Source of the DNA: Giardia intestinalis
Lineage: Eukaryota
Strand: one strand, 5' to 3'
Assembly: GCA_000002435.2 (NCBI GenBank)
Contig: CM018791.1
DNA length: 64,000 nucleotides
Of this stretch, positions 20,068-29,927 are shown piece by piece. The notes beneath the pieces are model-generated. The model was not told the origin of the DNA and did not search any database. It saw nothing but the letters and a program-made list of their open reading frames with translations. A program made the translations under genes and the position numbers. The stretch's first letter is position 1; each line of letters starts with the position of its first letter.

Positions 20068-20859
20068 ATGACCCGAGACGAGGAGATGATGTTTACGCTT
20101 CGCACCGGGGCAATTCCCCAGCTTCCCAGTCCAGAAGTTGTTCCATCCACCACTGGGGCCGAGGAGTTACATCAGATGATCATCCTGAAGGAGTGGAAGC
20201 GGGTCTGGTATCTTGGCGGTCATGGGGGCGTGCTCATTGAGATAGCTACACCATACGACGACGTTCGCAGAGGTAAGATGAACTGTCTACACTATGCGGC
20301 TCTAACGGGATCTACTGAGGCTGTGCGCTTACTCATGCAATCTGCGGGTAGGAAGGCGGCAAAGATCTTTATTATCAATGGCCCCAAGTACCATAATCCA
20401 TCTGCCTTGATGTTGGCTGCAGCTGGGGGACACACAGAGGTTGTGCAGCTCCTTATGAACGCGGAAGCACGCATGACAGAGGATTGGGGTGGCAAGACTG
20501 CGCTCATGATTGCCGCTTGGAATGGACATTGCGATGCTGTGCTCCTTTTGGCCGATGCTGAAGCCCGAATGCAGGATAACGCTGGGATGACTGCTCTGAT
20601 GCTTTCGGTGTGGACGGAGATGCCGGGGTGCACCTCTGTCCTGGCTCCTCTAGAGGCCGGTCTGATGGATGCATCTGGTCATACTGCGCTGTGCCACGCG
20701 TGCATGCACGGCTCGGTTGACTGTGCTAGACTTCTTGCTCCTCACGAAGCGGGTCTCCGCCTTCCCAGTGGGCAAACAGTTGCAGAGGCTGCCCTCTCCA
20801 AGACTCCTAGCCAGTACAAAGATGCTGTTGCTAACGTTCTAGCATCGTTCTTGCAGTAG
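20068..20859 (+). CDS. Ankyrin-repeat protein of the Giardia 'protein 21.1' type.
   Basis: Tandem ANK repeats CLHYAALTGSTEAVRLLMQ / SALMLAAAGGHTEVVQLLMNAEARMTEDWGGKTALMIAAWNGHCDAVLLLADAEARMQDNAGMTALM. AT-rich initiator ccaaataaaaagccattATG. Confidence 0.8.
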   Translation: MTRDEEMMFTLRTGAIPQLPSPEVVPSTTGAEELHQMIILKEWKRVWYLGGHGGVLIEIATPYDDVRRGKMNCLHYAALTGSTEAVRLLMQSAGRKAAKIFIINGPKYHNPSALMLAAAGGHTEVVQLLMNAEARMTEDWGGKTALMIAAWNGHCDAVLLLADAEARMQDNAGMTALMLSVWTEMPGCTSVLAPLEAGLMDASGHTALCHACMHGSVDCARLLAPHEAGLRLPSGQTVAEAALSKTPSQYKDAVANVLASFLQ

Positions 20860-20912
20860 AGAACAATTGTTCCCTTCGTAGTGTGAATGCTTGCGCGCAA
20901 GCGCAGTAGATT

Positions 20913-21554
20913 ATGATTAATACTTTAGACATATTCCGCGGAAGTCAGTTTTCAAAAATAATGAGAGTCATTTGCATCGACGGGTGTCACGGCGTTGGCA
21001 AGACGGCTATCATTTCAGACATTGCGAAGCGAGGGTACCATGTGCTTGATGAGCTCTTCTTCGAGATGCCGAAGTTTCTAGTCCCTTCCCAGTCTCTCAC
21101 TGTAGAGTTTATTTGGATCTCAAACTGGTTCAAGCGCATTCTCGACATGCAGAAGTCCGGCATGGCGGATGACGCGGTCGTCTTTGCCGATAGATCACCC
21201 TTCTCTGCCGTTTTCTACTCGCGGGCATCTCCCGAGGACCGGCTGGCTCTAGAGCAGGTTATCCGCGGCATGATTGCAGAACTCTCCAAATACAACATTA
21301 CCATCCACACCGTAGGGCTGTTGGTCGAGCGCGAGGAGCTATGGAAGCGTGTCCAGCGGCGACTGGAGGCTGAGCCCTTCAGGCGGGAGTTCAACGAGGA
21401 TAAGCGCTGGTGGCTTGACCAAACTGCAGACTGGTACGAGAGTTTTAGATGGGATACTGTGATAGACAACAGCTCCCAGCGATCGTCCGTGACTGGCCTC
21501 TCGGCGTTGATCAGCCCGTTCATACGAGACGTATGCGGCATCAACTGGGACTAG
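20913..21554 (+). CDS. Deoxynucleoside kinase family P-loop kinase (dCK/dGK/TK2-like).
   Basis: N-terminal P-loop ICIDGCHGVGKT, DRS (ERS-type) motif FADRSPFSAVFY, and Arg-rich LID RVQRRLEAEPFRREF. Confidence 0.6.
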   Translation: MINTLDIFRGSQFSKIMRVICIDGCHGVGKTAIISDIAKRGYHVLDELFFEMPKFLVPSQSLTVEFIWISNWFKRILDMQKSGMADDAVVFADRSPFSAVFYSRASPEDRLALEQVIRGMIAELSKYNITIHTVGLLVEREELWKRVQRRLEAEPFRREFNEDKRWWLDQTADWYESFRWDTVIDNSSQRSSVTGLSALISPFIRDVCGINWD

Positions 21555-21595
21555 TTCCCCCAAGTGAATCCAGATCTCTGCCTTGTTGCTGGAGT

Positions 21596-22663
21596 TTACA
21601 CGTCAATGTAGTGGTTCCAGTTGAATCTGTCTGGGATCACCCCGTACTGTATGCCCTGGACAGTTTCATATAGTAGCTTGGTAACTTCGCCAACCTGATC
21701 GTCAGATTGCAGGAAGTCGATAACAGTGGAACCGCGGGTGATGGAAGCAATGGGCGTCACAACGACGGCCGTGCCTGTGGCTCCGCATTCTTGGAATGTC
21801 TTAACCTCTGTGAACGGGACCTCGCGCACATCAACCTTCCAGCCGAAGTACTGGGAAATAAGCTCGCGGAGAGTCTTGTTCGTGATCGAGGGCAAAATAG
21901 AAGGAGACTTAGGAGTAACGTAAGTGCACGAAACGATCTTGCCCGCCCCATCTCTCTGGATGTCCTTAATCCCAAAGAAGTTGCTGGTGGAGAACTCCTC
22001 AACAAACGTGTGCGTAGCAGCGTCGAGGTACAGCTGAATGGGGAAGCTCTTTTTCAGAGCAACGCTCTGGGCCTTAAGAGATGCGGCGTAGTTTCCGGCA
22101 CACTTCTTGCTGCCGACGCCATAGGGTGCTGCCCTGTCGAATTCGTCCATAACGATTGCGTTCACGCTCTTGAGGCCTCCCCGGTAATAAGGACCAACAG
22201 GCGCGACCATCATGAGGAACATGTATTCGGACGACGGTGCAACTCCAAGCTGGGCTCCGGTACCGATAACCAGGGGACGGACATAGAGGGAGCCCCCTGT
22301 ACCATATGGCGGGATATAGTCAACGTTATCCCTGACAACCATCGCAAGAGCATTGAGGAAGAGCTGCTCTGACGGGGACTCCATGCAGAGACCGTCGCAC
22401 GAGCTGATGAGCCTGCGGGCATTCTCAACTGGTCTGAAGGCAGCGACTCTGCCGTCAACAGTGCGGAAGACCTTGAGACCCTCGAAGACTGCCTGGCCGT
22501 AGTGAAGCGCAGAGGCCGCAATCGAAATATTGAATGTCGGCTCGTTTACCAGCTCAAGAGGGCTCCACTCGCCGTTTCTCCAGACACTGCGAACGTGGGA
22601 GCGCGTTTGCAGCCACGAAAACTTCAGCGCAGACCAGTCTATCGTGGAGGGATCGACAGCCAT
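21596..22663 (-). CDS. Branched-chain amino acid aminotransferase (class IV PLP fold).
   Basis: ALHYGQAVFEGLKVFR, SLYVRPLVIGTGAQLGV, GVGSKKCAGNYAASL and TGTAVVVTPI are characteristic BCAT blocks. Confidence 0.85.
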   Translation of the reverse strand: MAVDPSTIDWSALKFSWLQTRSHVRSVWRNGEWSPLELVNEPTFNISIAASALHYGQAVFEGLKVFRTVDGRVAAFRPVENARRLISSCDGLCMESPSEQLFLNALAMVVRDNVDYIPPYGTGGSLYVRPLVIGTGAQLGVAPSSEYMFLMMVAPVGPYYRGGLKSVNAIVMDEFDRAAPYGVGSKKCAGNYAASLKAQSVALKKSFPIQLYLDAATHTFVEEFSTSNFFGIKDIQRDGAGKIVSCTYVTPKSPSILPSITNKTLRELISQYFGWKVDVREVPFTEVKTFQECGATGTAVVVTPIASITRGSTVIDFLQSDDQVGEVTKLLYETVQGIQYGVIPDRFNWNHYIDV

Positions 22664-22970
22664 TTTTCATTCTCCTTTGCTTAAGAAAAATGCTGACCAT
22701 TTTAACGGACGGCCCCCAAGATTGCTACGTTAAAAGAATGGAGCCCCGGGCGTAGCCACAAAACTCATAGAATTTACAAAGCTGTAGGCCAAAAGAAGCT
22801 TGAAACCAAGTAACAAATGTAATTATTACCTACTAAAAGCAAGTTGCCACACATACTGTTATGTGCGCACCTATAGTCGCGAAACCTGCACCGCATTTTC
22901 GTGCCTCTGTGTCCTGAAACGTACGTAGCTCATAGCTCACGATAACTTTTAAATCCATAAGCTGCAAAAT

Positions 22971-25900
22971 ATGACAGTGCTACTGCCTCCGATCATCCTC
23001 ATTCCTGGGGTTGGTGGATCAAAATTGGACGCAGTAAATAAGAAGAATGACAAAGTAGAGCGGGTCTGGATCTCGAAAGATGTCCTGCCTGTGCCTCAGC
23101 TGGGGAAAAAATTTGTGCATTATCTGTGGGGCCGGCCGGATCCCGAGACGCAACTATACACCAGTTATACTGAAGAGTATGCCGAAACGCGAATAGTTGA
23201 TGGCCTAGAGGGATGCTGGAGGCTTCTCGACCATTGGGTTATAAACACAGTCGAGCAACTTTTTAAGAACACAACTCTTGGGAAGTACTTCGTCACAATT
23301 ATTGGACGACTTATGCAGGACTATGGGTACCAACCGAACAAGAATCTTTTCGGCTTTTCCTACGACTGGCGCCAGCCTTTGTATGCGGAGTGTATCAAAG
23401 GAGAGCTGCACAAACTGATTATTCGTGTACGTGAGCTTAACAATGGCATGCCTGTTAACATCATTGCCCATTCCCTTGGAGGACTGGTCGGCCGAACTTA
23501 CTGCCAACTAACGCCGGATTGGATGACACACATCAGGCGCTTTATTACCATCGCGACCCCTTTTGATGGCAGTAGTAGCATGACGCTGAACAGCTTCATC
23601 AATGGGTATGCGCTCGACGTCCCAGGCATGAAGCTTGTGGCAGCTAGAGGAATTCAGGCATCCTCTTCCGTGACCATTTACCTATCGAACTTGCCCCCTC
23701 AGTATGAAGGAAATGATGTATCTCATAATAGGCGTAAACCTTTGGCCTACCTTTCCAATGGCTTGCCATACTGTACTTATTACTACAACAGCTGCATATA
23801 TCTCAAGAAAGTACACAAAGGCCTTAAACGGGCTAAACCCACCCACTACCGCCAAAGAACCTATCTTGAGAAACCGCCGGGATACCCTATTGACGGCCAC
23901 GAGCCCCTACACTCGCTCCTCTTTAACCCCCTACCGGCTTCCCTTAATGAGGAAGGGCAGTACAAGTCGTCTCAGTTTGATACGGATACCTTAGTTCACG
24001 ACGCAGAGAAAGACTCCAGACTACCCTGTAGTCTCAGGTCGCATTCTACTTCTCCGATCTCGACTAAGAGAAGCTCTAAGGTACTCAGCTCGTATCGCCC
24101 CTCGTCCTCCGTAACCAAAGCAGGAATCCAGCACAGGCGAATGCACTCTGACACCGTAGAGAAGCTCAAGATCACCCACCAAGAATTGACGCCCAAGCGC
24201 TACTCTGAGATCGTGCAATCAGGATTCGATGACACTGAGGATAAATCCTATCAAGCCAAGCTCTCTATAGGGCGAGCAATCCACTCTCGGAATGGATCTT
24301 TTATCACGCTAAAACAAAACCTTGATGTTCCAGAGCAGACCCCGAGCCACAGAAGGTCAGGCTCTTCAGCGTCGTCCGTTAGCCCAGGACCTAGTCACAT
24401 TGTGAATTATCACGAGCACAGCCATCGAGCAGTATCGCAAAGACAGTCGCGGATGCTTAATTTATCAAATATCTATATCACATTGGACTTTTCCAGATAT
24501 GGAAACAACGTCCCTGATATAGGTGCCATTCTATTGGGTCGATTCTTGAGCGACCCTACTCTTATTGCCAACGATAAGAAAAAGGAAGTGTATCAGCTCC
24601 TTATGAAGAACATAGAACGCAAGGTAATTGTCAAGACAGTAGGCATTAAGAAGCCGCGTGCAAGTGGGAAGAGTCTAGACACCCTGCTTGTACCGAACTA
24701 TAAGAGCAAGAAGTCGATGGCCGCTATTGAGGAGATTGTGAACACGAAGGGTACATGGAGATGGGAAGCCTACTCAATGTGGCCGCACCTAGGACGGACA
24801 AATGCGACGAGCATGGCCGCACATCCTTATTTTACGTTTAACAGCGTTGGATTCCCAGTGTTGAGGGAGGATTGCCCCTACCGCAATGAAGTCATCTCTG
24901 GAGTCATGCCCCACGGAAGCTCTTTCTCGCAGAACAGGGACCTGTATCTGATCGCGTCTGCCCAGGCCATATACATATCCACGAGGCACCTGACCGAGCC
25001 TCTGTACAGGATGGTCCTCGTTGGAGACGAGGAAAAGATGGTTAAAGGAAAGCAGTTAAACCTAGAATATGTCCCTCCGGACGATCTACATCTAATCACT
25101 GACACGACCATCTACAAGGCAGATGCCAGCGGTGTGTATAGCGCGCAAAACAAGGTCGCCGACAAGACAGACTCAAGTAACCGCGAAAAGACTTTGAAGA
25201 AAGGCATCAAGAAGCACTCCCATGGCAAGAAGATGCGCACTGTTGTGTGCCAAACCCCTGCTCCGTGGGTTTTTCTGCTGGACATTCTTGAGCAACCCTT
25301 GTACAATTTGCTGCGGCAGGTAACCAAGGTGGGAACCCTAGAGGCATATCTCTTTCAGCCATTCAAAGAATACTGGAAGTCAGTTGCTCGGGCCAGAGTG
25401 AAGGCGCTTGAGTACAATCTCCAAGAAGACATCGGATCATCTCAGATAATGACCAGGAGCGAGTCCGTCTTTCCTATGTTCACCAGTGTCTCCCTCCAGG
25501 ACCATAGTGCTCTCGAGCGATCACTGACAGCCAGCATACCCAGCAATGCCCTCACGGGGGATGCAGCCTATAAGTTGGACCTTGTACCAGAGGCGCCAAA
25601 CGGGGGCCTCACCAATGCACCAAGTCCCGAATCAACCACTCTGAGTATTCCTAGAAGGCCTAAGCAAGCTTCTCCAGTTCGGCCAGAAAAGTATCTCCGG
25701 AAAAGAAACGGCGACCCTCGGTGCATCCCCAAGGAGCTCATCGCCCAGTACCCCATCCTGTCCTCGATGAAGCCATGCACAACGGACGACTTTAGATTTA
25801 TCAGCATAAATGGGGGAAATGTGCCTACACCCATACACACGATCTATCCCAAGCCGATAAGCACATACGACGAGCTCCAGAGCCAGCTTCCTGTCTTCAT

Positions 25901-26147
25901 AATGGGCAGAGGAGACGGGACGGTCCTTCTCTCGGGAGCGCTGAGCGACAACTTTGACGACGCGCTCGTCCACGACAGAGTGGTGATCCCGGATGCCACG
26001 CACGGCGGGCTGCTCCACGACGAGGCCGTCTTCTACCTGATCTACATGGGGCTCGGGCTCCCCCTGCAGCTCCCGCACACCCACGGCGAGCCGGAGCCGG
26101 AAGAGCGGGGCGCCGGGCCGGCGAACGGCCGAGCAGAGGTTGAGTGA
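22971..26147 (+). CDS. LCAT/PDAT-family phospholipid acyltransferase or phospholipase, with a very large internal or C-terminal extension.
   Basis: IILIPGVGGSKLDA, FGFSYDWRQ, and nucleophile elbow AHSLGG. The Asp/His triad motifs MGRGDGTVLL and ATHGGLLHDE sit ~800 aa downstream, near the C-terminus. Confidence 0.8.
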   Translation: MTVLLPPIILIPGVGGSKLDAVNKKNDKVERVWISKDVLPVPQLGKKFVHYLWGRPDPETQLYTSYTEEYAETRIVDGLEGCWRLLDHWVINTVEQLFKNTTLGKYFVTIIGRLMQDYGYQPNKNLFGFSYDWRQPLYAECIKGELHKLIIRVRELNNGMPVNIIAHSLGGLVGRTYCQLTPDWMTHIRRFITIATPFDGSSSMTLNSFINGYALDVPGMKLVAARGIQASSSVTIYLSNLPPQYEGNDVSHNRRKPLAYLSNGLPYCTYYYNSCIYLKKVHKGLKRAKPTHYRQRTYLEKPPGYPIDGHEPLHSLLFNPLPASLNEEGQYKSSQFDTDTLVHDAEKDSRLPCSLRSHSTSPISTKRSSKVLSSYRPSSSVTKAGIQHRRMHSDTVEKLKITHQELTPKRYSEIVQSGFDDTEDKSYQAKLSIGRAIHSRNGSFITLKQNLDVPEQTPSHRRSGSSASSVSPGPSHIVNYHEHSHRAVSQRQSRMLNLSNIYITLDFSRYGNNVPDIGAILLGRFLSDPTLIANDKKKEVYQLLMKNIERKVIVKTVGIKKPRASGKSLDTLLVPNYKSKKSMAAIEEIVNTKGTWRWEAYSMWPHLGRTNATSMAAHPYFTFNSVGFPVLREDCPYRNEVISGVMPHGSSFSQNRDLYLIASAQAIYISTRHLTEPLYRMVLVGDEEKMVKGKQLNLEYVPPDDLHLITDTTIYKADASGVYSAQNKVADKTDSSNREKTLKKGIKKHSHGKKMRTVVCQTPAPWVFLLDILEQPLYNLLRQVTKVGTLEAYLFQPFKEYWKSVARARVKALEYNLQEDIGSSQIMTRSESVFPMFTSVSLQDHSALERSLTASIPSNALTGDAAYKLDLVPEAPNGGLTNAPSPESTTLSIPRRPKQASPVRPEKYLRKRNGDPRCIPKELIAQYPILSSMKPCTTDDFRFISINGGNVPTPIHTIYPKPISTYDELQSQLPVFIMGRGDGTVLLSGALSDNFDDALVHDRVVIPDATHGGLLHDEAVFYLIYMGLGLPLQLPHTHGEPEPEERGAGPANGRAEVE

Positions 26148-26291
26148 AGGGATCCTACGTGATGGCTTCGTCGTCATGACCGCCTCCGCCAGGACAGCTA
26201 TTCGTCATCGGGTTGGGGTTCTTTTTCTCGGGGGATCAAAATTCAAATTAAAATACATTTAATGTGATTTATTCTGGATGCTAAGAAGAGA

Positions 26292-27854
26292 CTAAGAAGA
26301 AGAGGTGCTGGATATATCGATCGCGTCCTCGCCAAGGTCCTCCTCAAAGTCGACCTCGTTCATGTTCACTGAGTGAAAGCTATAGTCATTTGGTGTGGAA
26401 GACGCCCGCGTAACTATCAGAGCTTCTAATTGTGCGGCCCAGTCCTGGGCTGCGGTGTCACTCTTGGCATCGTACCACTCCTTACACTTTTCTCTAGTGT
26501 GCATTGAAGTAAAGTCGACCTCGACAAGAAAGCTGAGGATGCTCCCGCTGTGGTTGCGGAGGAGGTAGAAGTAAGCCAGTTCGAAGGATGATCTAATGTA
26601 CTTGTATCTAGTCACCCCGCCCGCGCAGTCGCTGGTTGGATCATGAGAGTTCAATATGCTTAGAAAGGGGGCGGACCCCCCTTTAATGCTCTGGTGATAG
26701 TAGCCGGACGTCCTCCGAGATGAAACAAAGGACTCGTTCCCCCGAGGATTGGTGTATATGGTCAAGTCTTCTGCGTTGTAAATAGTCCCAAACAGCTCGA
26801 AAAACTCTATGAGAGACGCGGCGTGGAACCTATTGGTCAGAAGTTCGAACTCCATGGATGTCTGGCCTTGATCCTTCTTCCTTACATGCGTCCGCTTCTC
26901 TCTAATTAGCAAGTTTGAGTTGGATTCGTCCATGCTACTTATGGCGGGCTGATCGGGGTCTACTTCACCTGACTCCAGTAGAGCGAGGTTTTCGCCGGTT
27001 ATGGAATATGGGAACACGTTGTGTCTCTCTGAGATATACACGACTATAAGCTGCAAGAGAATATAGGAGCTCATTCCACCAGTATAGGGTTGATTTAAGC
27101 CTCGCTTCTTAAGGAATGACTTGACCACCATGATAAGGATGCGCGCCAAGGGGTGCTTTTCTATATATCCTAGTATAGTTTCCCTATGGGCCGCGCCATG
27201 AGGGGAGTTAAACGATATGTCATACTCCAAAGACAGCTCACTGTGGACACCCTTAATTATAGGCACCCGTGCATGACTTCTCACATCAACATAGTTGGTT
27301 GAGATGGAGCGCCGCAAGAGAGTTGCGATGTCATGCATATGGCACTGCATCATAGCAGCACTATTCACAGGCACGTTAACACAGATGTCCAAGTCGGAAG
27401 AATAGCTGGACATACCCGTCGAGTAACTTCCGAACACATCGACGGTGGCATCTGGAAGTACAAGCTGAATTATATCTCTCAGCTGGCCAAGGACATACTC
27501 CCTTGCAGCCTTTTCTGCCTCTGTCAGTGTGCAGTATGCAACGTACTGGAGAATCTCCAGGTTGAGCCTGGTCAAGTAGGGAAGATTGGCCAGCTTCAGC
27601 AACTGCTCTTGAGGAAGCCATGGAACATCAACCCCATCAACCCCGTCCTTGAGCTTAGCGACAGACGGGGCGGTCTTCTTTTGCCCCCGTGGGAGGGACC
27701 GCAAGTTTATCTGTTGTATGTGCTGTTTCTTAAGCCCTGGCTCTGCATGCTCTGAAGCCTCGAATATGATATCCTCAAACTCTATGTTTGCCGCGGCACG
27801 CTCTTCCGGGGCCTTTCCGCGGGCTTCACTGATGACTTTAAGCAGATCATTCAT
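26292..27854 (-). CDS. Non-canonical poly(A) polymerase or terminal uridylyltransferase (Cid1/Trf4/Gld2-type nucleotidyltransferase with PAP-associated domain).
   Basis: Pol-beta NTase motif VFGSYSTGMSSYSSDLDICV, with a downstream PAP/25A-associated-like GGMSSYILLQLIVVYI. Confidence 0.75.
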   Translation of the reverse strand: MNDLLKVISEARGKAPEERAAANIEFEDIIFEASEHAEPGLKKQHIQQINLRSLPRGQKKTAPSVAKLKDGVDGVDVPWLPQEQLLKLANLPYLTRLNLEILQYVAYCTLTEAEKAAREYVLGQLRDIIQLVLPDATVDVFGSYSTGMSSYSSDLDICVNVPVNSAAMMQCHMHDIATLLRRSISTNYVDVRSHARVPIIKGVHSELSLEYDISFNSPHGAAHRETILGYIEKHPLARILIMVVKSFLKKRGLNQPYTGGMSSYILLQLIVVYISERHNVFPYSITGENLALLESGEVDPDQPAISSMDESNSNLLIREKRTHVRKKDQGQTSMEFELLTNRFHAASLIEFFELFGTIYNAEDLTIYTNPRGNESFVSSRRTSGYYHQSIKGGSAPFLSILNSHDPTSDCAGGVTRYKYIRSSFELAYFYLLRNHSGSILSFLVEVDFTSMHTREKCKEWYDAKSDTAAQDWAAQLEALIVTRASSTPNDYSFHSVNMNEVDFEEDLGEDAIDISSTSSS

Positions 27855-27974
27855 CCGGGATTTCGCCTTGCCAGACGTGCAAATAAATCACTTGGAATTT
27901 AATATATTTTGTCCATTTTGCAGTTACCTATACGCAAAATAGTACACTAAACGCTTTTAAAAGGCTGTAGGCGC

Positions 27975-29927
27975 ATGGGCGGAGAAACCTTCGAAGATCA
28001 GTTTGAACCCATAGAGTTATTGGGCAGTGGTTCTTTTGGGAAGGTGCACAAGGTCCGCTCGCGCAAGGATGGACGTATCTACGCCTGCAAGGAGATAGAG
28101 TACACCAAGATGAGCTCCAAGGAGGTATCCCTTCTCCAGTCCGAGGTTATTAATCTTCGACGCATGAGCCACCCACACATTATCGCCTATTACTCCACGA
28201 TTCACGATCAGGATGCGTCCGTGGTCTTCATCATCAATGAGTACTGTGGGAAAGGCGATCTGACAAAATACATTCGGACTTATCGCCAGAAGAAGGAGAA
28301 CATTCCTGAGGCCACTATATGGAGTATGTTCCATCAGATGGCCCTTGCCTTGGAGTATTGCCACTCTCCGAACAAACCTGGTTTCAAGCCAGGGGAGATT
28401 GTCATTCACAGGGACATCAAGCCTGCAAACGTCCTCATCACAGATGACGACCAGCTGAAGCTGGCAGACTTTGGTTTTTGCCGCACGATTGGGCTTGACA
28501 CCATGGCACAGACCAAGGCAGGTTCTCCTGTTTACTGTGCGCCGGAGGTACTGCGCGAGGAGGACTACAACGAGAAGGCAGACATATGGTCTCTCGGCTG
28601 TGTCATCTATGAGCTCTGCTGCGTCGAATACGCGTACAGCAGCATCAATGAGAAGTTTCTATTGATATCTATGATGCAGCAGAAGCGAAAACCCATTCCT
28701 TCTTGCTACAGCCGTGACTTGGCGGAGGTGATTGAGCGGATGCTGCAGGTTGATTTCAAGAAGCGTCCGAGTGCCACAGAGCTCCTAGCCCATCCCAAAT
28801 TCAAAGAGTATAACCTTACCCGAGCCAGTAACAAGAGTCCTGCCCTTGCTGCTGCTCGCATCTCTGGGCCTTCTAGCAAGCCCCCGGCCTCTGGCAACAC
28901 TCCTTCCCAGACACCTCAACCGGGTACTGCTGCTGCCAAGAATGCTGCGTCCCTCGGTCGTGTTTCTGGCTCACCGGAGCGGGCACTCCCAGCGTCAACA
29001 GGACAGTATGGCTCCAATCTAGTTGCACCGCCCTCGCGCGGAGCTATCGCTACCACACCTACCGTTCCTACCAATGCCAGCAAGGGCGCCCCTAAGGATT
29101 CTGGACAGCTTCATGACGTGATTGTGAGACAGAAGAAGGAGATTGATGAGCTAAAAGCGAGAGTGTCGTCAGGGTCGACGTCCCATGGTATTTCCGAGAA
29201 CGCCAGGAACACAATAGTCAAGGCAAGTGATGAGATTAAGAAGAAGGACGACGAGATTATTCGCTTGTCCGACACTGTCTTTAATAAGGAGGAGGAGAAT
29301 GCCGCTCTGCGCCGCGAAATAGCTGCCTACGAGAAGTTCACAACTACCGTTCTGATGCCCAGACCGGGCGAGAACCCACTCGCCGATGGTGTGACAAGGC
29401 TTATGCTTGCTGCGCAGAAGGGCCTTACTGCGGTTGTACAGCACCTTCTTTCTCAGGAAATTGGGCTTCGAAGTGCCTCTGGGAAGACTGCCCTCATGTA
29501 TGCTGCTGAGAATGGACAGAACGCGTGTGTCCGTCTGCTAATGGACAAAGAAGGAGGGATGCAAGACAACAAGGGGACCACTGCCCTTATGCGTGCAAGC
29601 ATTGGCGGACGCTTTGAGACGTGCAAGATTCTCTTCGCTAGGGAGTCCGGCATGCAGTCTCAGGAAGGCGATACGGCGCTGACCTACGCCACGATACGTG
29701 GGAACACAGAGATTATACGACTGCTTGCTCCGCGCGAGGCAGGCCTCCAGTTGAAGGACGGAAAGACAGCCCTTATGAGTGCAGCGTCTCGTGGCTTCCT
29801 GGAGGCGGTCAAGATACTCTACGATCGGGAAGGGAAACTCGTTGATAAGAATGGGCGCGACGCTCTCTACTACGCCCAGCAGAAAAATCTAGGAGATATA
29901 ATCGCCTTCTTGCAGTCTAAGAGGTAG
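27975..29927 (+). CDS. NEK-family Ser/Thr kinase, predicted active, with coiled-coil and C-terminal ankyrin repeats.
   Basis: LGSGSFGKV, YACKEI, HRDIKPANVL, DFG, CAPEV and DIWSLGCVIYEL. The C-terminal repeats TALMYAAENGQNACVRLLMDKEGGMQDNKGTTALMRAS are 21.1-type ANK. Confidence 0.9.
   Translation: MGGETFEDQFEPIELLGSGSFGKVHKVRSRKDGRIYACKEIEYTKMSSKEVSLLQSEVINLRRMSHPHIIAYYSTIHDQDASVVFIINEYCGKGDLTKYIRTYRQKKENIPEATIWSMFHQMALALEYCHSPNKPGFKPGEIVIHRDIKPANVLITDDDQLKLADFGFCRTIGLDTMAQTKAGSPVYCAPEVLREEDYNEKADIWSLGCVIYELCCVEYAYSSINEKFLLISMMQQKRKPIPSCYSRDLAEVIERMLQVDFKKRPSATELLAHPKFKEYNLTRASNKSPALAAARISGPSSKPPASGNTPSQTPQPGTAAAKNAASLGRVSGSPERALPASTGQYGSNLVAPPSRGAIATTPTVPTNASKGAPKDSGQLHDVIVRQKKEIDELKARVSSGSTSHGISENARNTIVKASDEIKKKDDEIIRLSDTVFNKEEENAALRREIAAYEKFTTTVLMPRPGENPLADGVTRLMLAAQKGLTAVVQHLLSQEIGLRSASGKTALMYAAENGQNACVRLLMDKEGGMQDNKGTTALMRASIGGRFETCKILFARESGMQSQEGDTALTYATIRGNTEIIRLLAPREAGLQLKDGKTALMSAASRGFLEAVKILYDREGKLVDKNGRDALYYAQQKNLGDIIAFLQSKR

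What the first reader, a model, noticed from the sequence alone, without database searches (positions are those of the whole stretch)
22971..26147. LCAT-family enzyme whose catalytic triad is split by a ~800-aa insertion/extension
The N-terminal 200 aa carry the LCAT/PDAT hallmarks (IPGVGGSKLDA, YDWR, nucleophile elbow AHSLGG). The Asp and His triad motifs (GRGDGTVLL; ATHGGLLHDE) appear only at residues ~990-1030 of 1058. The intervening region is Ser-rich, low-complexity in parts and has no recognisable domain. Either an exceptionally large cap/insert domain is tolerated inside the alpha/beta-hydrolase fold, or the distal motifs are fortuitous and the enzyme is a Ser-only pseudo-lipase. Giardia secretes or uses LCAT-like phospholipases, so a membrane- or lipid-scavenging role is plausible.
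Basis: seen in the sequence. Interest (0 to 1): 0.5.

Follow-up and report, generated by a model that had tools for sequence, protein, structure and literature searches.

The report
Giardia LCAT-like lipase, giant cap insert
This is an already annotated Giardia lipid enzyme (GiLCAT3) whose three catalytic residues are real but lie 814 and 29 residues apart, because the enzyme's cap has gained floppy loops and an extra folded domain of unknown function that relatives of Giardia also carry.

Summary
Window 22971-26147 (+) is one 1058-aa ORF with IPGVGGSKLDA (11-21), YDWR (131-134), AHSLGG (166-171, Ser168), GRGDGTVLL (979-987, Asp982) and ATHGGLLHDE (1009-1018, His1011).

The distal motifs are not fortuitous:
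- Ser168, Asp982 and His1011 are invariant in 55 aligned family members.
- The C-terminal block alone matches canonical LCAT-family proteins (hhalign E 1.7e-26).

The "insert" is not one featureless block. It has three predicted disordered stretches (about 291-497, 710-751, 820-913). These evolve fast between Giardia assemblages, and the first and third are largely absent from relatives. It also has a confident ~200-aa folded domain (498-705) with no detectable homolog, and cap helices (755-820).

Ser-to-Asp spacings of about 400 to 930 aa, against about 180-250 in canonical-spacing family members found here (162 in LPLA2), occur across Giardia, Spironucleus, Hexamita, Dysnectes, Chilomastix, Kipferlia and Blattamonas.

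The gene appears to be GiLCAT3 (identical 3177-nt length), published in 2017 and assigned to Lands-cycle phospholipid remodelling. It has no signal peptide, so the "precursor" label and a secreted role are unsupported. It is a real but modest architectural variant of a known enzyme family.

The parts
22971..26147 (+). Whole gene: a 1058-aa LCAT/LPLA2-family protein that appears to be GiLCAT3 of Giardia duodenalis, including the stop codon
   Evidence: ORF. A 99% match (Logan assembly) and a 77% match named Giardia duodenalis (assembly GCA_000498735.1, a different lineage). Same 3177-nt length as GiLCAT3, XP_001706263.1, chr3 471497-474673 (PMC5573378). Exact protein found in many independent assemblies.
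22971..23720 (+). aa 1-250: N-terminal part of the alpha/beta-hydrolase core, the region corresponding to the membrane-binding domain, and the first cap elements. It contains PGVGGS (beta1/oxyanion region), YDWR and the nucleophile elbow.
   Evidence: Pfam LCAT PF02450 over aa 105-238, E 2.6e-16, 60.3 bits against a cutoff of 21. Profile match to LPLA2 100-237. pLDDT mostly above 90. pN 0.035 against the assemblage-B ortholog.
23466..23483 (+). AHSLGG nucleophile elbow; Ser168 codon at 23472-23474
   Evidence: H167, S168 and G170 are invariant in 55 sequences. Aligned to AHSMG of LPLA2. Follows predicted strand 162-167.
23721..24461 (+). aa 251-497: variable, mostly disordered insert 1. It is Ser/Lys/Arg-rich and holds a short conserved beta-hairpin (aa 270-290, CIYLKK, K279 invariant in the 7-sequence alignment).
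   Evidence: pLDDT below 50 for 291-497 but 96 for 271-280. Only 56-68% identity and pN 0.214 between assemblages. Mostly absent from G. muris, Hexamita and others.
24462..25085 (+). aa 498-705: 'M1', a conserved folded mixed alpha/beta domain nested in the cap. Conserved motifs are YG..VPD and W.WE.(Y/F)S.W. It has no detectable homolog outside these LCAT-like proteins.
   Evidence: pLDDT 86-97 for aa 501-690. 82-94% identity and pN 0.071 between assemblages. Sub-HMM hits in about 20 Fornicata-type proteins. No Pfam or PDB sequence match. No hhalign match to canonical LCAT-family proteins (E 0.6).
25086..25232 (+). aa 706-754: variable disordered loop
   Evidence: pLDDT below 50 for 710-751. 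pN 0.227.
25233..25430 (+). aa 755-820: 'M2', helical segment (PW...G(T/S)L...W) that probably corresponds to the C-terminal helices of the canonical cap domain
   Evidence: pLDDT 83-97. Canonical proteins' cap residues align here in MAFFT, with occupancy about 1.0 at 781-810. hhalign match is weak but in the right position (E 0.073). pN 0.075.
25431..25709 (+). aa 821-913: Giardia-specific disordered loop (insert 3)
   Evidence: pLDDT below 50 for 820-913. 40% identity at aa 851-900 and pN 0.223 for aa 821-934 between assemblages. Absent from Hexamita, P0004 and P0006.
25710..26075 (+). aa 914-1035: C-terminal part of the hydrolase core. It holds the acid (GRGDGTVLL, Asp982 codon 25914-25916) and the base (ATHGG, His1011 codon 26001-26003).
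26076..26144 (+). aa 1036-1058: short, variable, acidic and proline-rich C-terminal tail
   Evidence: Low pLDDT. pN 0.424. Not conserved in A1.

Best explanation
The gene encodes a catalytically competent Ser-Asp-His lipid hydrolase or acyltransferase of the LCAT/LPLA2/PDAT family. It appears to be Giardia duodenalis GiLCAT3.

The polypeptide leaves the alpha/beta-hydrolase core after strand beta6 and the first cap elements (about aa 250). It then makes a long excursion and re-enters the core at about aa 935. There it supplies strands beta7 and beta8, which carry Asp982 and His1011.

The excursion is a hypertrophied cap region made of:
(a) three fast-evolving, intrinsically disordered, Ser/Lys/Arg-rich loops; two of them (about 291-497 and 820-913) are largely Giardia-specific, while the third (710-751) is partly occupied in relatives;
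(b) a ~200-aa folded domain, M1 (498-705), conserved across Fornicata and without detectable homologs;
(c) cap helices, M2 (755-820), probably inherited from the canonical cap.

The enzyme has no signal peptide and no transmembrane helix. It most likely works inside the cell as a soluble or peripheral-membrane phospholipase A or transacylase. It would deacylate phospholipids in the Lands remodelling cycle that Giardia uses to tailor scavenged host lipids.

Shown here: the sequence features, their conservation, homology of both halves to the family, and the predicted single fold.
Inferred: catalytic activity, substrate, cellular location and any role of M1 or the disordered loops (for example membrane or substrate selection, or regulation by phosphorylation or proteolysis).
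For: ORF and motifs.

Family assignment: Pfam LCAT at 60.3 bits against a cutoff of 21. LPLA2 and LCAT are the only strong PDB sequence hits.

C-terminal half:
- Colinear third profile stretch onto LPLA2 312-373, covering GDGDGTV and His.
- H167, S168, G170, G981, D982 and H1011 are the only invariant columns among 55 long- and canonical-spacing sequences.
- Asp-to-His spacing is 29 in 27 of the 28 highest-scoring long-spacing proteins with a mappable C block (28 in the other), while Ser-to-Asp varies from 403 to 877.
- The C block of the long clade against independent canonical proteins gives hhalign Prob 99.7, E 1.7e-26.

Structure:
- AF2 with the 55-sequence alignment gives pLDDT 70.6 and pTM 0.74. 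The triad residues sit at the canonical topological positions.

Selection: pN is 0.035-0.075 in the core, M1, M2 and C blocks, against 0.21-0.23 in the disordered loops. pS is about 0.6-0.75 throughout.

Taxonomy of the long-spacing form.

No signal peptide or transmembrane segment.

Literature:
- GiLCAT1-4 are placed in the Lands cycle. GiLCAT3 has RNA-seq and SAGE evidence (PMC5573378).
- Membrane-bound and soluble PLA activities have been measured in Giardia, with no gene assigned (PMC10513453).
Against: - No biochemical, localisation or proteomic data exist for this protein. The 2017 survey lists RNA-seq and SAGE evidence but no mass-spectrometry evidence.
- The structural evidence is a prediction. 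I could not inspect coordinates or PAE, so the geometry of the triad and the packing of M1 are not directly verified.
- Homology of M2 to the canonical cap is statistically weak (E 0.073).
- Synonymous sites between the two assemblages are saturated, so formal dN/dS values are unreliable.
- Substrate and reaction type (PLA1, PLA2, lysophospholipase or acyltransferase) cannot be inferred from sequence.
Confidence: 0.8

Rival explanations
1. The distal GDGTV and His motifs are fortuitous. The protein is a Ser-only pseudo-lipase, or a non-catalytic lipid-binding scaffold with an unrelated C-terminus.
For: hmmscan against Pfam reports only aa 105-238 as LCAT. Single-sequence phmmer gives the C-terminal stretch a non-significant score (0.8 bits).
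Against: - D982 and H1011 are invariant in 55 sequences.
- The Asp-to-His spacing is fixed.
- hhalign gives E 1.7e-26 for the C block alone against canonical proteins.
- The profile aligns it to LPLA2 312-373, colinear with the N-terminal match.
- pN is 0.054 in this block.
Confidence: 0.03
2. Gene-model or assembly artefact: two genes fused, unrecognised introns, or inserted foreign DNA make the triad look split. The real protein would be much shorter.
For: The disordered stretches evolve fast and are missing from relatives. Giardia proteins are generally compact (general knowledge).
Against: - The reading frame stays open for 3177 nt.
- The exact protein is indexed in 149 blocks of independent assemblies. 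All four displayed places have the same neighbours.
- The ortholog in a different Giardia lineage (77% identical, 1061 aa) is collinear and syntenic.
- pN is below pS in every segment, including the disordered ones (0.21-0.23 against 0.6-0.75).
- Long Ser-to-Asp spacing is seen in many genera, including transcriptome-derived sequences of Dysnectes, Chilomastix and Barthelona.
- Introns are very rare in Giardia (general knowledge).
Confidence: 0.04
3. The protein is made as one chain but matures by proteolysis inside a disordered loop. The result would be two fragments that stay associated, each carrying part of the triad, as reported for Toxoplasma LCAT. Cleavage would act as an activation switch.
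For: - TgLCAT has catalytic Ser332. It is processed into products whose sizes fit cleavage near aa 594 (PMC5830472).
- From memory, the 2016 JBC paper (not held) reported that the two fragments share the triad residues and must reassemble for activity.
- The window protein has about 376 predicted disordered residues between Ser and Asp, which would be exposed to proteases.
Against: Nothing in the sequence demonstrates a cleavage site, and no proteomic data were available. This refines the main explanation rather than excluding it.
Confidence: 0.12

Closest known systems
Lysosomal phospholipase A2 (LPLA2, PLA2G15; PDB 4x90) and human LCAT (PDB 4xwg, 5txf, 6mvd)
   Same: - Same Pfam family (PF02450).
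- Same Ser-Asp-His triad in the same order and at the same topological positions.
- Same N-terminal PGxxG(S/N) and YDWR motifs.
- The predicted fold superposes on 345 of 376 LPLA2 residues, covering the hydrolase core, the membrane-binding-domain region and cap elements.
- The three-domain description of LCAT and LPLA2 comes from PMC6277198.
   Different: - Ser-to-Asp is 814 aa here against 162-164.
- There is an extra ~200-aa folded domain (M1) and about 376 disordered residues inside the cap region.
- There is no signal peptide, whereas LCAT is secreted and LPLA2 is lysosomal.
- Identity is only about 20%.
- There is no evidence for sterol esterification or apolipoprotein activation, so the database name 'phosphatidylcholine-sterol acyltransferase precursor' is over-specific.
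Other Fornicata/Metamonada LCAT-like proteins: GiLCAT4 and the other GiLCAT paralogs, four G. muris paralogs, and Spironucleus, Hexamita, Dysnectes, Chilomastix, Kipferlia and Blattamonas homologs
   Same: - Same architecture, with the triad split by a long excursion. Ser-to-Asp is 403-877 in the closest clade, 926 in Kipferlia and 697 in Blattamonas.
- Asp-to-His is 29 in all but one member of the closest clade (28 in one Spironucleus protein); it is 25-26 in Kipferlia and Blattamonas.
- The M1 and M2 blocks are shared within the closest clade but were not detected in Kipferlia or Blattamonas.
   Different: - The window protein (with its ortholog in the other Giardia lineage) carries two extra disordered expansions (about 291-497 and 820-913). 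These are largely absent from G. muris (755 aa) and Hexamita (638 aa).
- GiLCAT4 adds about 1050 aa after the triad.
- Some Spironucleus paralogs and Barthelona have intermediate spacing (330-350).
Toxoplasma gondii LCAT (TgLCAT, TGME49_272420)
   Same: A protist LCAT-family enzyme that is much longer than the mammalian ones. It has measured PLA2 and acyltransferase activity, and its chain is processed between the catalytic Ser332 and the C-terminal part (PMC10513453; PMC5830472). It shows that a long, even cleaved, Ser-to-Asp excursion is compatible with activity.
   Different: TgLCAT is secreted from dense granules and acts in egress. I did not align it here, so I cannot say whether its insert is related to M1. 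The Giardia protein lacks a signal peptide.
Phospholipid:diacylglycerol acyltransferases (PDAT; yeast Lro1, plant PDAT1)
   Same: Same Pfam family, and longer than LCAT. Several metamonad homologs are annotated 'LCAT/PDAT'.
   Different: PDATs are N-terminally membrane-anchored (general knowledge). No transmembrane segment is present here. No direct comparison was run.

Membership tests
LCAT/LPLA2/PDAT family (Pfam PF02450) | Significant match to the family profile above the curated threshold | tested here: met
   60.3 bits against a gathering cutoff of 21, E 2.6e-16, over aa 105-238. The family profile A1 matches LPLA2 at E 6e-20 and LCAT at E 1.5e-13.
LCAT/LPLA2/PDAT family (Pfam PF02450) | Ser-Asp-His triad: a GxSxG-type elbow (AxSxG), GDGTV-type acid and C-terminal His, collinear with LPLA2 S165, D327 and H359 | tested here: met
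   S168, D982 and H1011 are invariant in 55 sequences. They align to the AHSMG, GDGDGTV and His regions of LPLA2. The C block gives hhalign E 1.7e-26.
LCAT/LPLA2/PDAT family (Pfam PF02450) | One alpha/beta-hydrolase core plus a membrane-binding domain and a cap domain | tested here: met
LCAT/LPLA2/PDAT family (Pfam PF02450) | Phospholipase A or acyltransferase activity | not testable with these tools
   Needs an enzyme assay. Only bulk PLA activities are reported for Giardia, with no gene assigned (PMC10513453).
LCAT proper (phosphatidylcholine-sterol O-acyltransferase, a secreted plasma enzyme), as the database name implies | N-terminal signal peptide ('precursor') and secretion | tested here: not met
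   The conserved beta1 motif PIILIPG starts at residue 7 and aligns to residue 5 of the LPLA2 crystal chain 4x90_A. The maximum 19-residue Kyte-Doolittle mean is 1.45, and it falls in that strand.
LCAT proper (phosphatidylcholine-sterol O-acyltransferase, a secreted plasma enzyme), as the database name implies | Sterol esterification and apolipoprotein A-I activation through the lid | not testable with these tools
The lid and cap region is where this protein differs most from LCAT.
Fornicata long-cap LCAT-like clade (defined here) | Ser-to-Asp of at least about 400 aa, Asp-to-His of 29 aa, and presence of the M1 (YG..VPD / W.WE) and M2 (PW...G[TS]L) blocks | tested here: met
   The sub-HMMs were built from the 7-sequence alignment that includes this protein and its two near-identical orthologs, so the window's own scores (417, 315, 97 and 164 bits for N, M1, M2 and C) are partly self-matches. 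Independent support is that clade members outside that alignment (P0007-P0025) also hit M1 and M2, with the same spacing pattern.

The most novel reading that the evidence does not exclude
M1 (aa 498-705) would be a new, metamonad-specific protein fold nested in the cap of LCAT-like enzymes. It would control access to the active site, for example by selecting the membrane or lipid substrate during scavenging of host lipids. The flanking Ser-rich disordered loops would act as a phosphorylation or proteolysis switch. That would make these enzymes mechanistically distinct from LCAT and LPLA2, and a parasite-specific target. My evidence does not exclude this. M1 is conserved and strongly constrained, and it is confidently predicted to fold. 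It also has no sequence match to Pfam, PDB chains or canonical family members. I could not search its fold separately.
Probability: 0.3. Interest if true: 0.5.

Novelty: new variant of a known kind. Interest (0 to 1): 0.3.

Why it matters
Giardia makes few of its lipids de novo and remodels host lipids. The GiLCAT enzymes are the candidate deacylating step of that remodelling, and no Giardia phospholipase A gene has yet been characterised (PMC5573378; PMC10513453).

This work gives a concrete construct map for expression, mutagenesis (S168, D982, H1011) and structure work:
- the unusually long protein is a complete triad enzyme;
- about a third of it is dispensable-looking disorder;
- about 200 aa form a conserved lineage-specific domain.

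It also corrects the misleading 'sterol acyltransferase precursor' label. More generally, it is an extreme example of how much sequence the cap position of the alpha/beta-hydrolase fold can absorb. Ser-to-Asp reaches about 930 residues in relatives.

It does not change any concept. Cap insertions in this fold and long inserts in parasite proteins are both well known.

Tried and rejected
- The first AlphaFold run, with the 7-sequence alignment A1, gave mean pLDDT 37. It was undecided about the C-terminus. It was superseded by the 55-sequence run.
- Foldseek against afdb50 was not available on the machine. I therefore could not test whether any protein outside the metamonads shares M1 structurally. 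The prediction cap also prevented modelling M1 alone.
- The M1 profile (A3) gave nothing meaningful against PDB sequences (best E 0.28) or Pfam (best E 0.12).
- The word-index search with A3 returned no hit at all, not even the source proteins. It is uninformative.
- hhalign of M1 and of aa 241-300 against canonical family members gave no match. I rejected the idea that M1 is simply a stretched version of the canonical cap.
- Formal dN/dS was abandoned because pS is saturated (about 0.7). I report pN by segment instead.
- The 2016 TgLCAT paper (PMC4759155) is not held. A phrase search for its key statement found nothing. That precedent rests partly on memory and partly on PMC5830472.
- The antisense ORF at 25632-26177 (-) was considered and dismissed as a by-product of the GC-rich 3' end. 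No further evidence was sought.
Full report
**1. Observation**

Window 22971-26147 (+) is a single ATG-to-TGA ORF of 1058 codons. The codons of Ser168, Asp982 and His1011 are 23472-23474, 25914-25916 and 26001-26003. Pfam recognises only aa 105-238 as LCAT (PF02450, 60.3 bits against a cutoff of 21). That is why the distal motifs looked doubtful.

**2. Identity**

- The closest database proteins are a 99% identical sequence and a 77% identical 1061-aa protein named 'Phosphatidylcholine-sterol acyltransferase precursor [Giardia duodenalis]'. They are followed by G. muris (755 aa) and Hexamita inflata (638 aa) homologs.
- The 77% ortholog lies in assembly GCA_000498735.1. It has the same neighbours: ankyrin protein, AAA_28 kinase-like protein, class-IV aminotransferase, LCAT, MTPAP/TUTase-like protein, and kinase with ankyrin repeats.
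- A 2017 survey of Giardia glycerophospholipid genes lists GiLCAT3 (XP_001706263.1) at chromosome 3, 471497-474673 (+). That is 3177 nt, exactly the length found here. The survey gives RNA-seq and SAGE evidence and assigns GiLCAT1-4 to the Lands cycle (PMC5573378). I could not compare sequences, so the identification rests on the matching length and organism.
- That paper never mentions an insertion or the catalytic triad.
- The exact protein is indexed in 149 blocks of independent assemblies, and the four displayed places all have the same neighbours. The ORF is therefore not an assembly artefact.

**3. Are the distal Asp and His real?**

Four independent lines say yes.

(a) A profile of seven diplomonad-type homologs hits LPLA2 (4x90, E 6e-20) in three collinear stretches. 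The last covers LPLA2 312-373, with GDGDGTV and the His region in register.

(b) I aligned 55 sequences that mix long-spacing and canonical-spacing family members. The only invariant columns are H167, S168, G170, G981, D982 and H1011.

(c) Sub-profiles were mapped on the 152 best representatives of a search of 1.84 billion proteins. The 28 highest-scoring proteins with a mappable C block have Ser-to-Asp of 403-877 residues. Their Asp-to-His spacing is 29 in all but one (28). More distant family members have Ser-to-Asp of about 180-250 and Asp-to-His of 25-28.

(d) The C block of the long clade alone (24 sequences, aa 935-1035) was compared with a separately built alignment of 26 canonical-spacing proteins. 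This gives hhalign Prob 99.7, E 1.7e-26 over 90 columns at 32% identity.

The 'fortuitous motif / Ser-only pseudo-lipase' alternative is therefore rejected.

**4. One fold or two?**

- AlphaFold2 with only seven sequences was inconclusive (pLDDT 37).
- With the 55-sequence alignment the model reaches mean pLDDT 70.6 and pTM 0.74. In it, 499 residues have pLDDT of at least 90 and 376 are below 50.
- Ser168 follows strand 162-167 and precedes helix 169-180. Asp982 ends strand 975-982. His1011 lies in the loop after strand 1000-1007, before the last helices. This is the canonical nucleophile, acid and base topology of the alpha/beta-hydrolase fold (established knowledge).
- Foldseek finds LPLA2 and LCAT first, but its local alignments (about 255 columns) stop at the insert.
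- The N-terminal part supplies at most about 250 residues. So about 95 or more aligned residues must come from segments beyond the insert. In the model, the C-terminal Asp/His segment is thus part of one LPLA2-like body.
- I could not inspect coordinates or PAE. Triad geometry is therefore inferred, not measured.

**5. Anatomy of the intervening 814 residues**

It is a composite, not a single Ser-rich block.

- aa 251-497: mostly disordered (pLDDT below 50 for 291-497). It is Ser/Lys/Arg-rich, with true low complexity only at about 345-386 and 457-494. Identity between the two Giardia lineages is 56-68% and pN is 0.214. It is largely absent from G. muris and Hexamita. A short hairpin at 270-290 is conserved and confident.
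- aa 498-705 (M1): pLDDT is 86-97 for aa 501-690, with mixed alpha/beta structure. Identity between the lineages is 82-94% and pN is 0.071. It is detected in about 20 clade members. Its conserved motifs are YG..VPD and W.WE.(Y/F)S.W. It has no match in Pfam or PDB sequences and none to canonical family members (hhalign E 0.6). No stand-alone M1 protein appeared among the top 150 representatives, where the listing cutoff was about 91 bits.
- aa 706-754: disordered, pN 0.227.
- aa 755-820 (M2): confident helices. Canonical proteins' cap residues align here, and hhalign places it immediately upstream of the C block. The match is not significant (E 0.073). This segment is probably the inherited C-terminal cap helices.
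- aa 821-913: disordered, with only 40% identity between the lineages at 851-900. It is absent from Hexamita, P0004 and P0006.
- aa 914-1035: the core.

pN stays below pS (about 0.6-0.75, saturated) in every segment. So even the loops appear to be translated and mildly constrained.

**6. Distribution**

The long-spacing architecture occurs in the following:
- G. duodenalis GiLCAT4 (2125 aa, Ser-to-Asp 877);
- four G. muris paralogs;
- Spironucleus salmonicida, Hexamita inflata, Dysnectes brevis, Chilomastix cuspidata and Kipferlia bialata (Ser-to-Asp 926);
- the preaxostylan Blattamonas (Ser-to-Asp 697).

Some Spironucleus paralogs and Barthelona have intermediate spacing (330-350). It is therefore an old, lineage-wide feature of metamonad LCAT-like enzymes. 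The window gene adds two large disordered expansions that are largely specific to Giardia duodenalis.

**7. Mechanism**

*Shown:* homology of both halves, an invariant triad, a predicted single LPLA2-like fold, and strong constraint on the core, M1 and M2.

*Inferred:* the protein is an active serine hydrolase or transacylase acting on phospholipids. The insertions sit at the cap position. In LCAT and LPLA2 the cap carries the active-site lid (PMC6277198). M1 and the loops are therefore positioned to influence substrate access, membrane binding or regulation.

*Location:* the beta1 motif begins at residue 7 and aligns to residue 5 of the LPLA2 crystal chain, and no segment reaches transmembrane hydrophobicity. 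Classical secretion is therefore unlikely, and the 'precursor' label is inherited from mammalian LCAT. An intracellular Lands-cycle deacylase role fits two reports. One is the pathway reconstruction (PMC5573378). The other is the soluble and membrane-bound PLA activities measured in Giardia, which have no gene assigned (PMC10513453).

**8. Precedent and novelty**

Toxoplasma LCAT is an active PLA2 and acyltransferase. Its chain is processed between catalytic Ser332 and the C-terminal part, with a putative site near aa 594 (PMC5830472; PMC10513453). From memory, the 2016 JBC paper (not held) reported that the fragments share the triad and must reassemble. A long or even broken Ser-to-Asp connection in a protist LCAT is thus already known.

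The gene itself is annotated and named. What seems undescribed in the literature I could search is the Fornicata-wide conserved M1 domain and the composite nature of the insert. I rate it a new variant of a known kind, of modest interest (0.3).

**9. Leads that went nowhere**

These were the afdb50 search (unavailable), the word-index search with M1 (empty), the formal dN/dS (saturated), and the TgLCAT primary paper (not held).

Noticed in passing
window 22971-22991 (aa 1-7) and the database name of ortholog P0002: The public name 'Phosphatidylcholine-sterol acyltransferase precursor' implies a signal peptide and a sterol substrate. The protein starts 6 residues before the conserved beta1 motif. 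It has no signal-peptide-like or transmembrane segment.
   Followed up: yes
window 20068-29927: Gene order around the LCAT gene is fully conserved with the 77%-identical Giardia lineage. The order is ankyrin protein (20068-20859 +), AAA_28 protein (20913-21554 +), class-IV aminotransferase (21596-22663 -), LCAT, MTPAP/TUTase-like nucleotidyltransferase (26292-27854 -), and kinase with ankyrin repeats (27975-29927 +). These genes have no evident functional link to lipid metabolism.
   Followed up: partly
window 25632-26177 (-): A 181-aa antisense ORF overlaps the GC-richer 3' end of the LCAT gene (GC 0.55 against about 0.49 upstream). It is probably a spurious ORF. It was not examined further.
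   Followed up: no
window 22664-22970: The intergenic spacer upstream of the LCAT gene is about 300 bp, longer than most spacers in this very densely packed window. It ends in an A/T-rich stretch directly before the ATG (...ttttaaatccataagctgcaaaatATG).
   Followed up: no
P0013 (GiLCAT4, XP_001704693.1, 2125 aa; not in the window): The paralog GiLCAT4 has its triad at about S165, D1042 and H1071. It then continues for about 1050 more residues of unknown nature. The 2017 paper noted only its long branch.
   Followed up: no
window 1-64000: No tRNA genes were found in the whole 64-kb window. There are 27 ORFs of at least 250 aa, packed on both strands with very short spacers, as is typical of Giardia.
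   Followed up: partly
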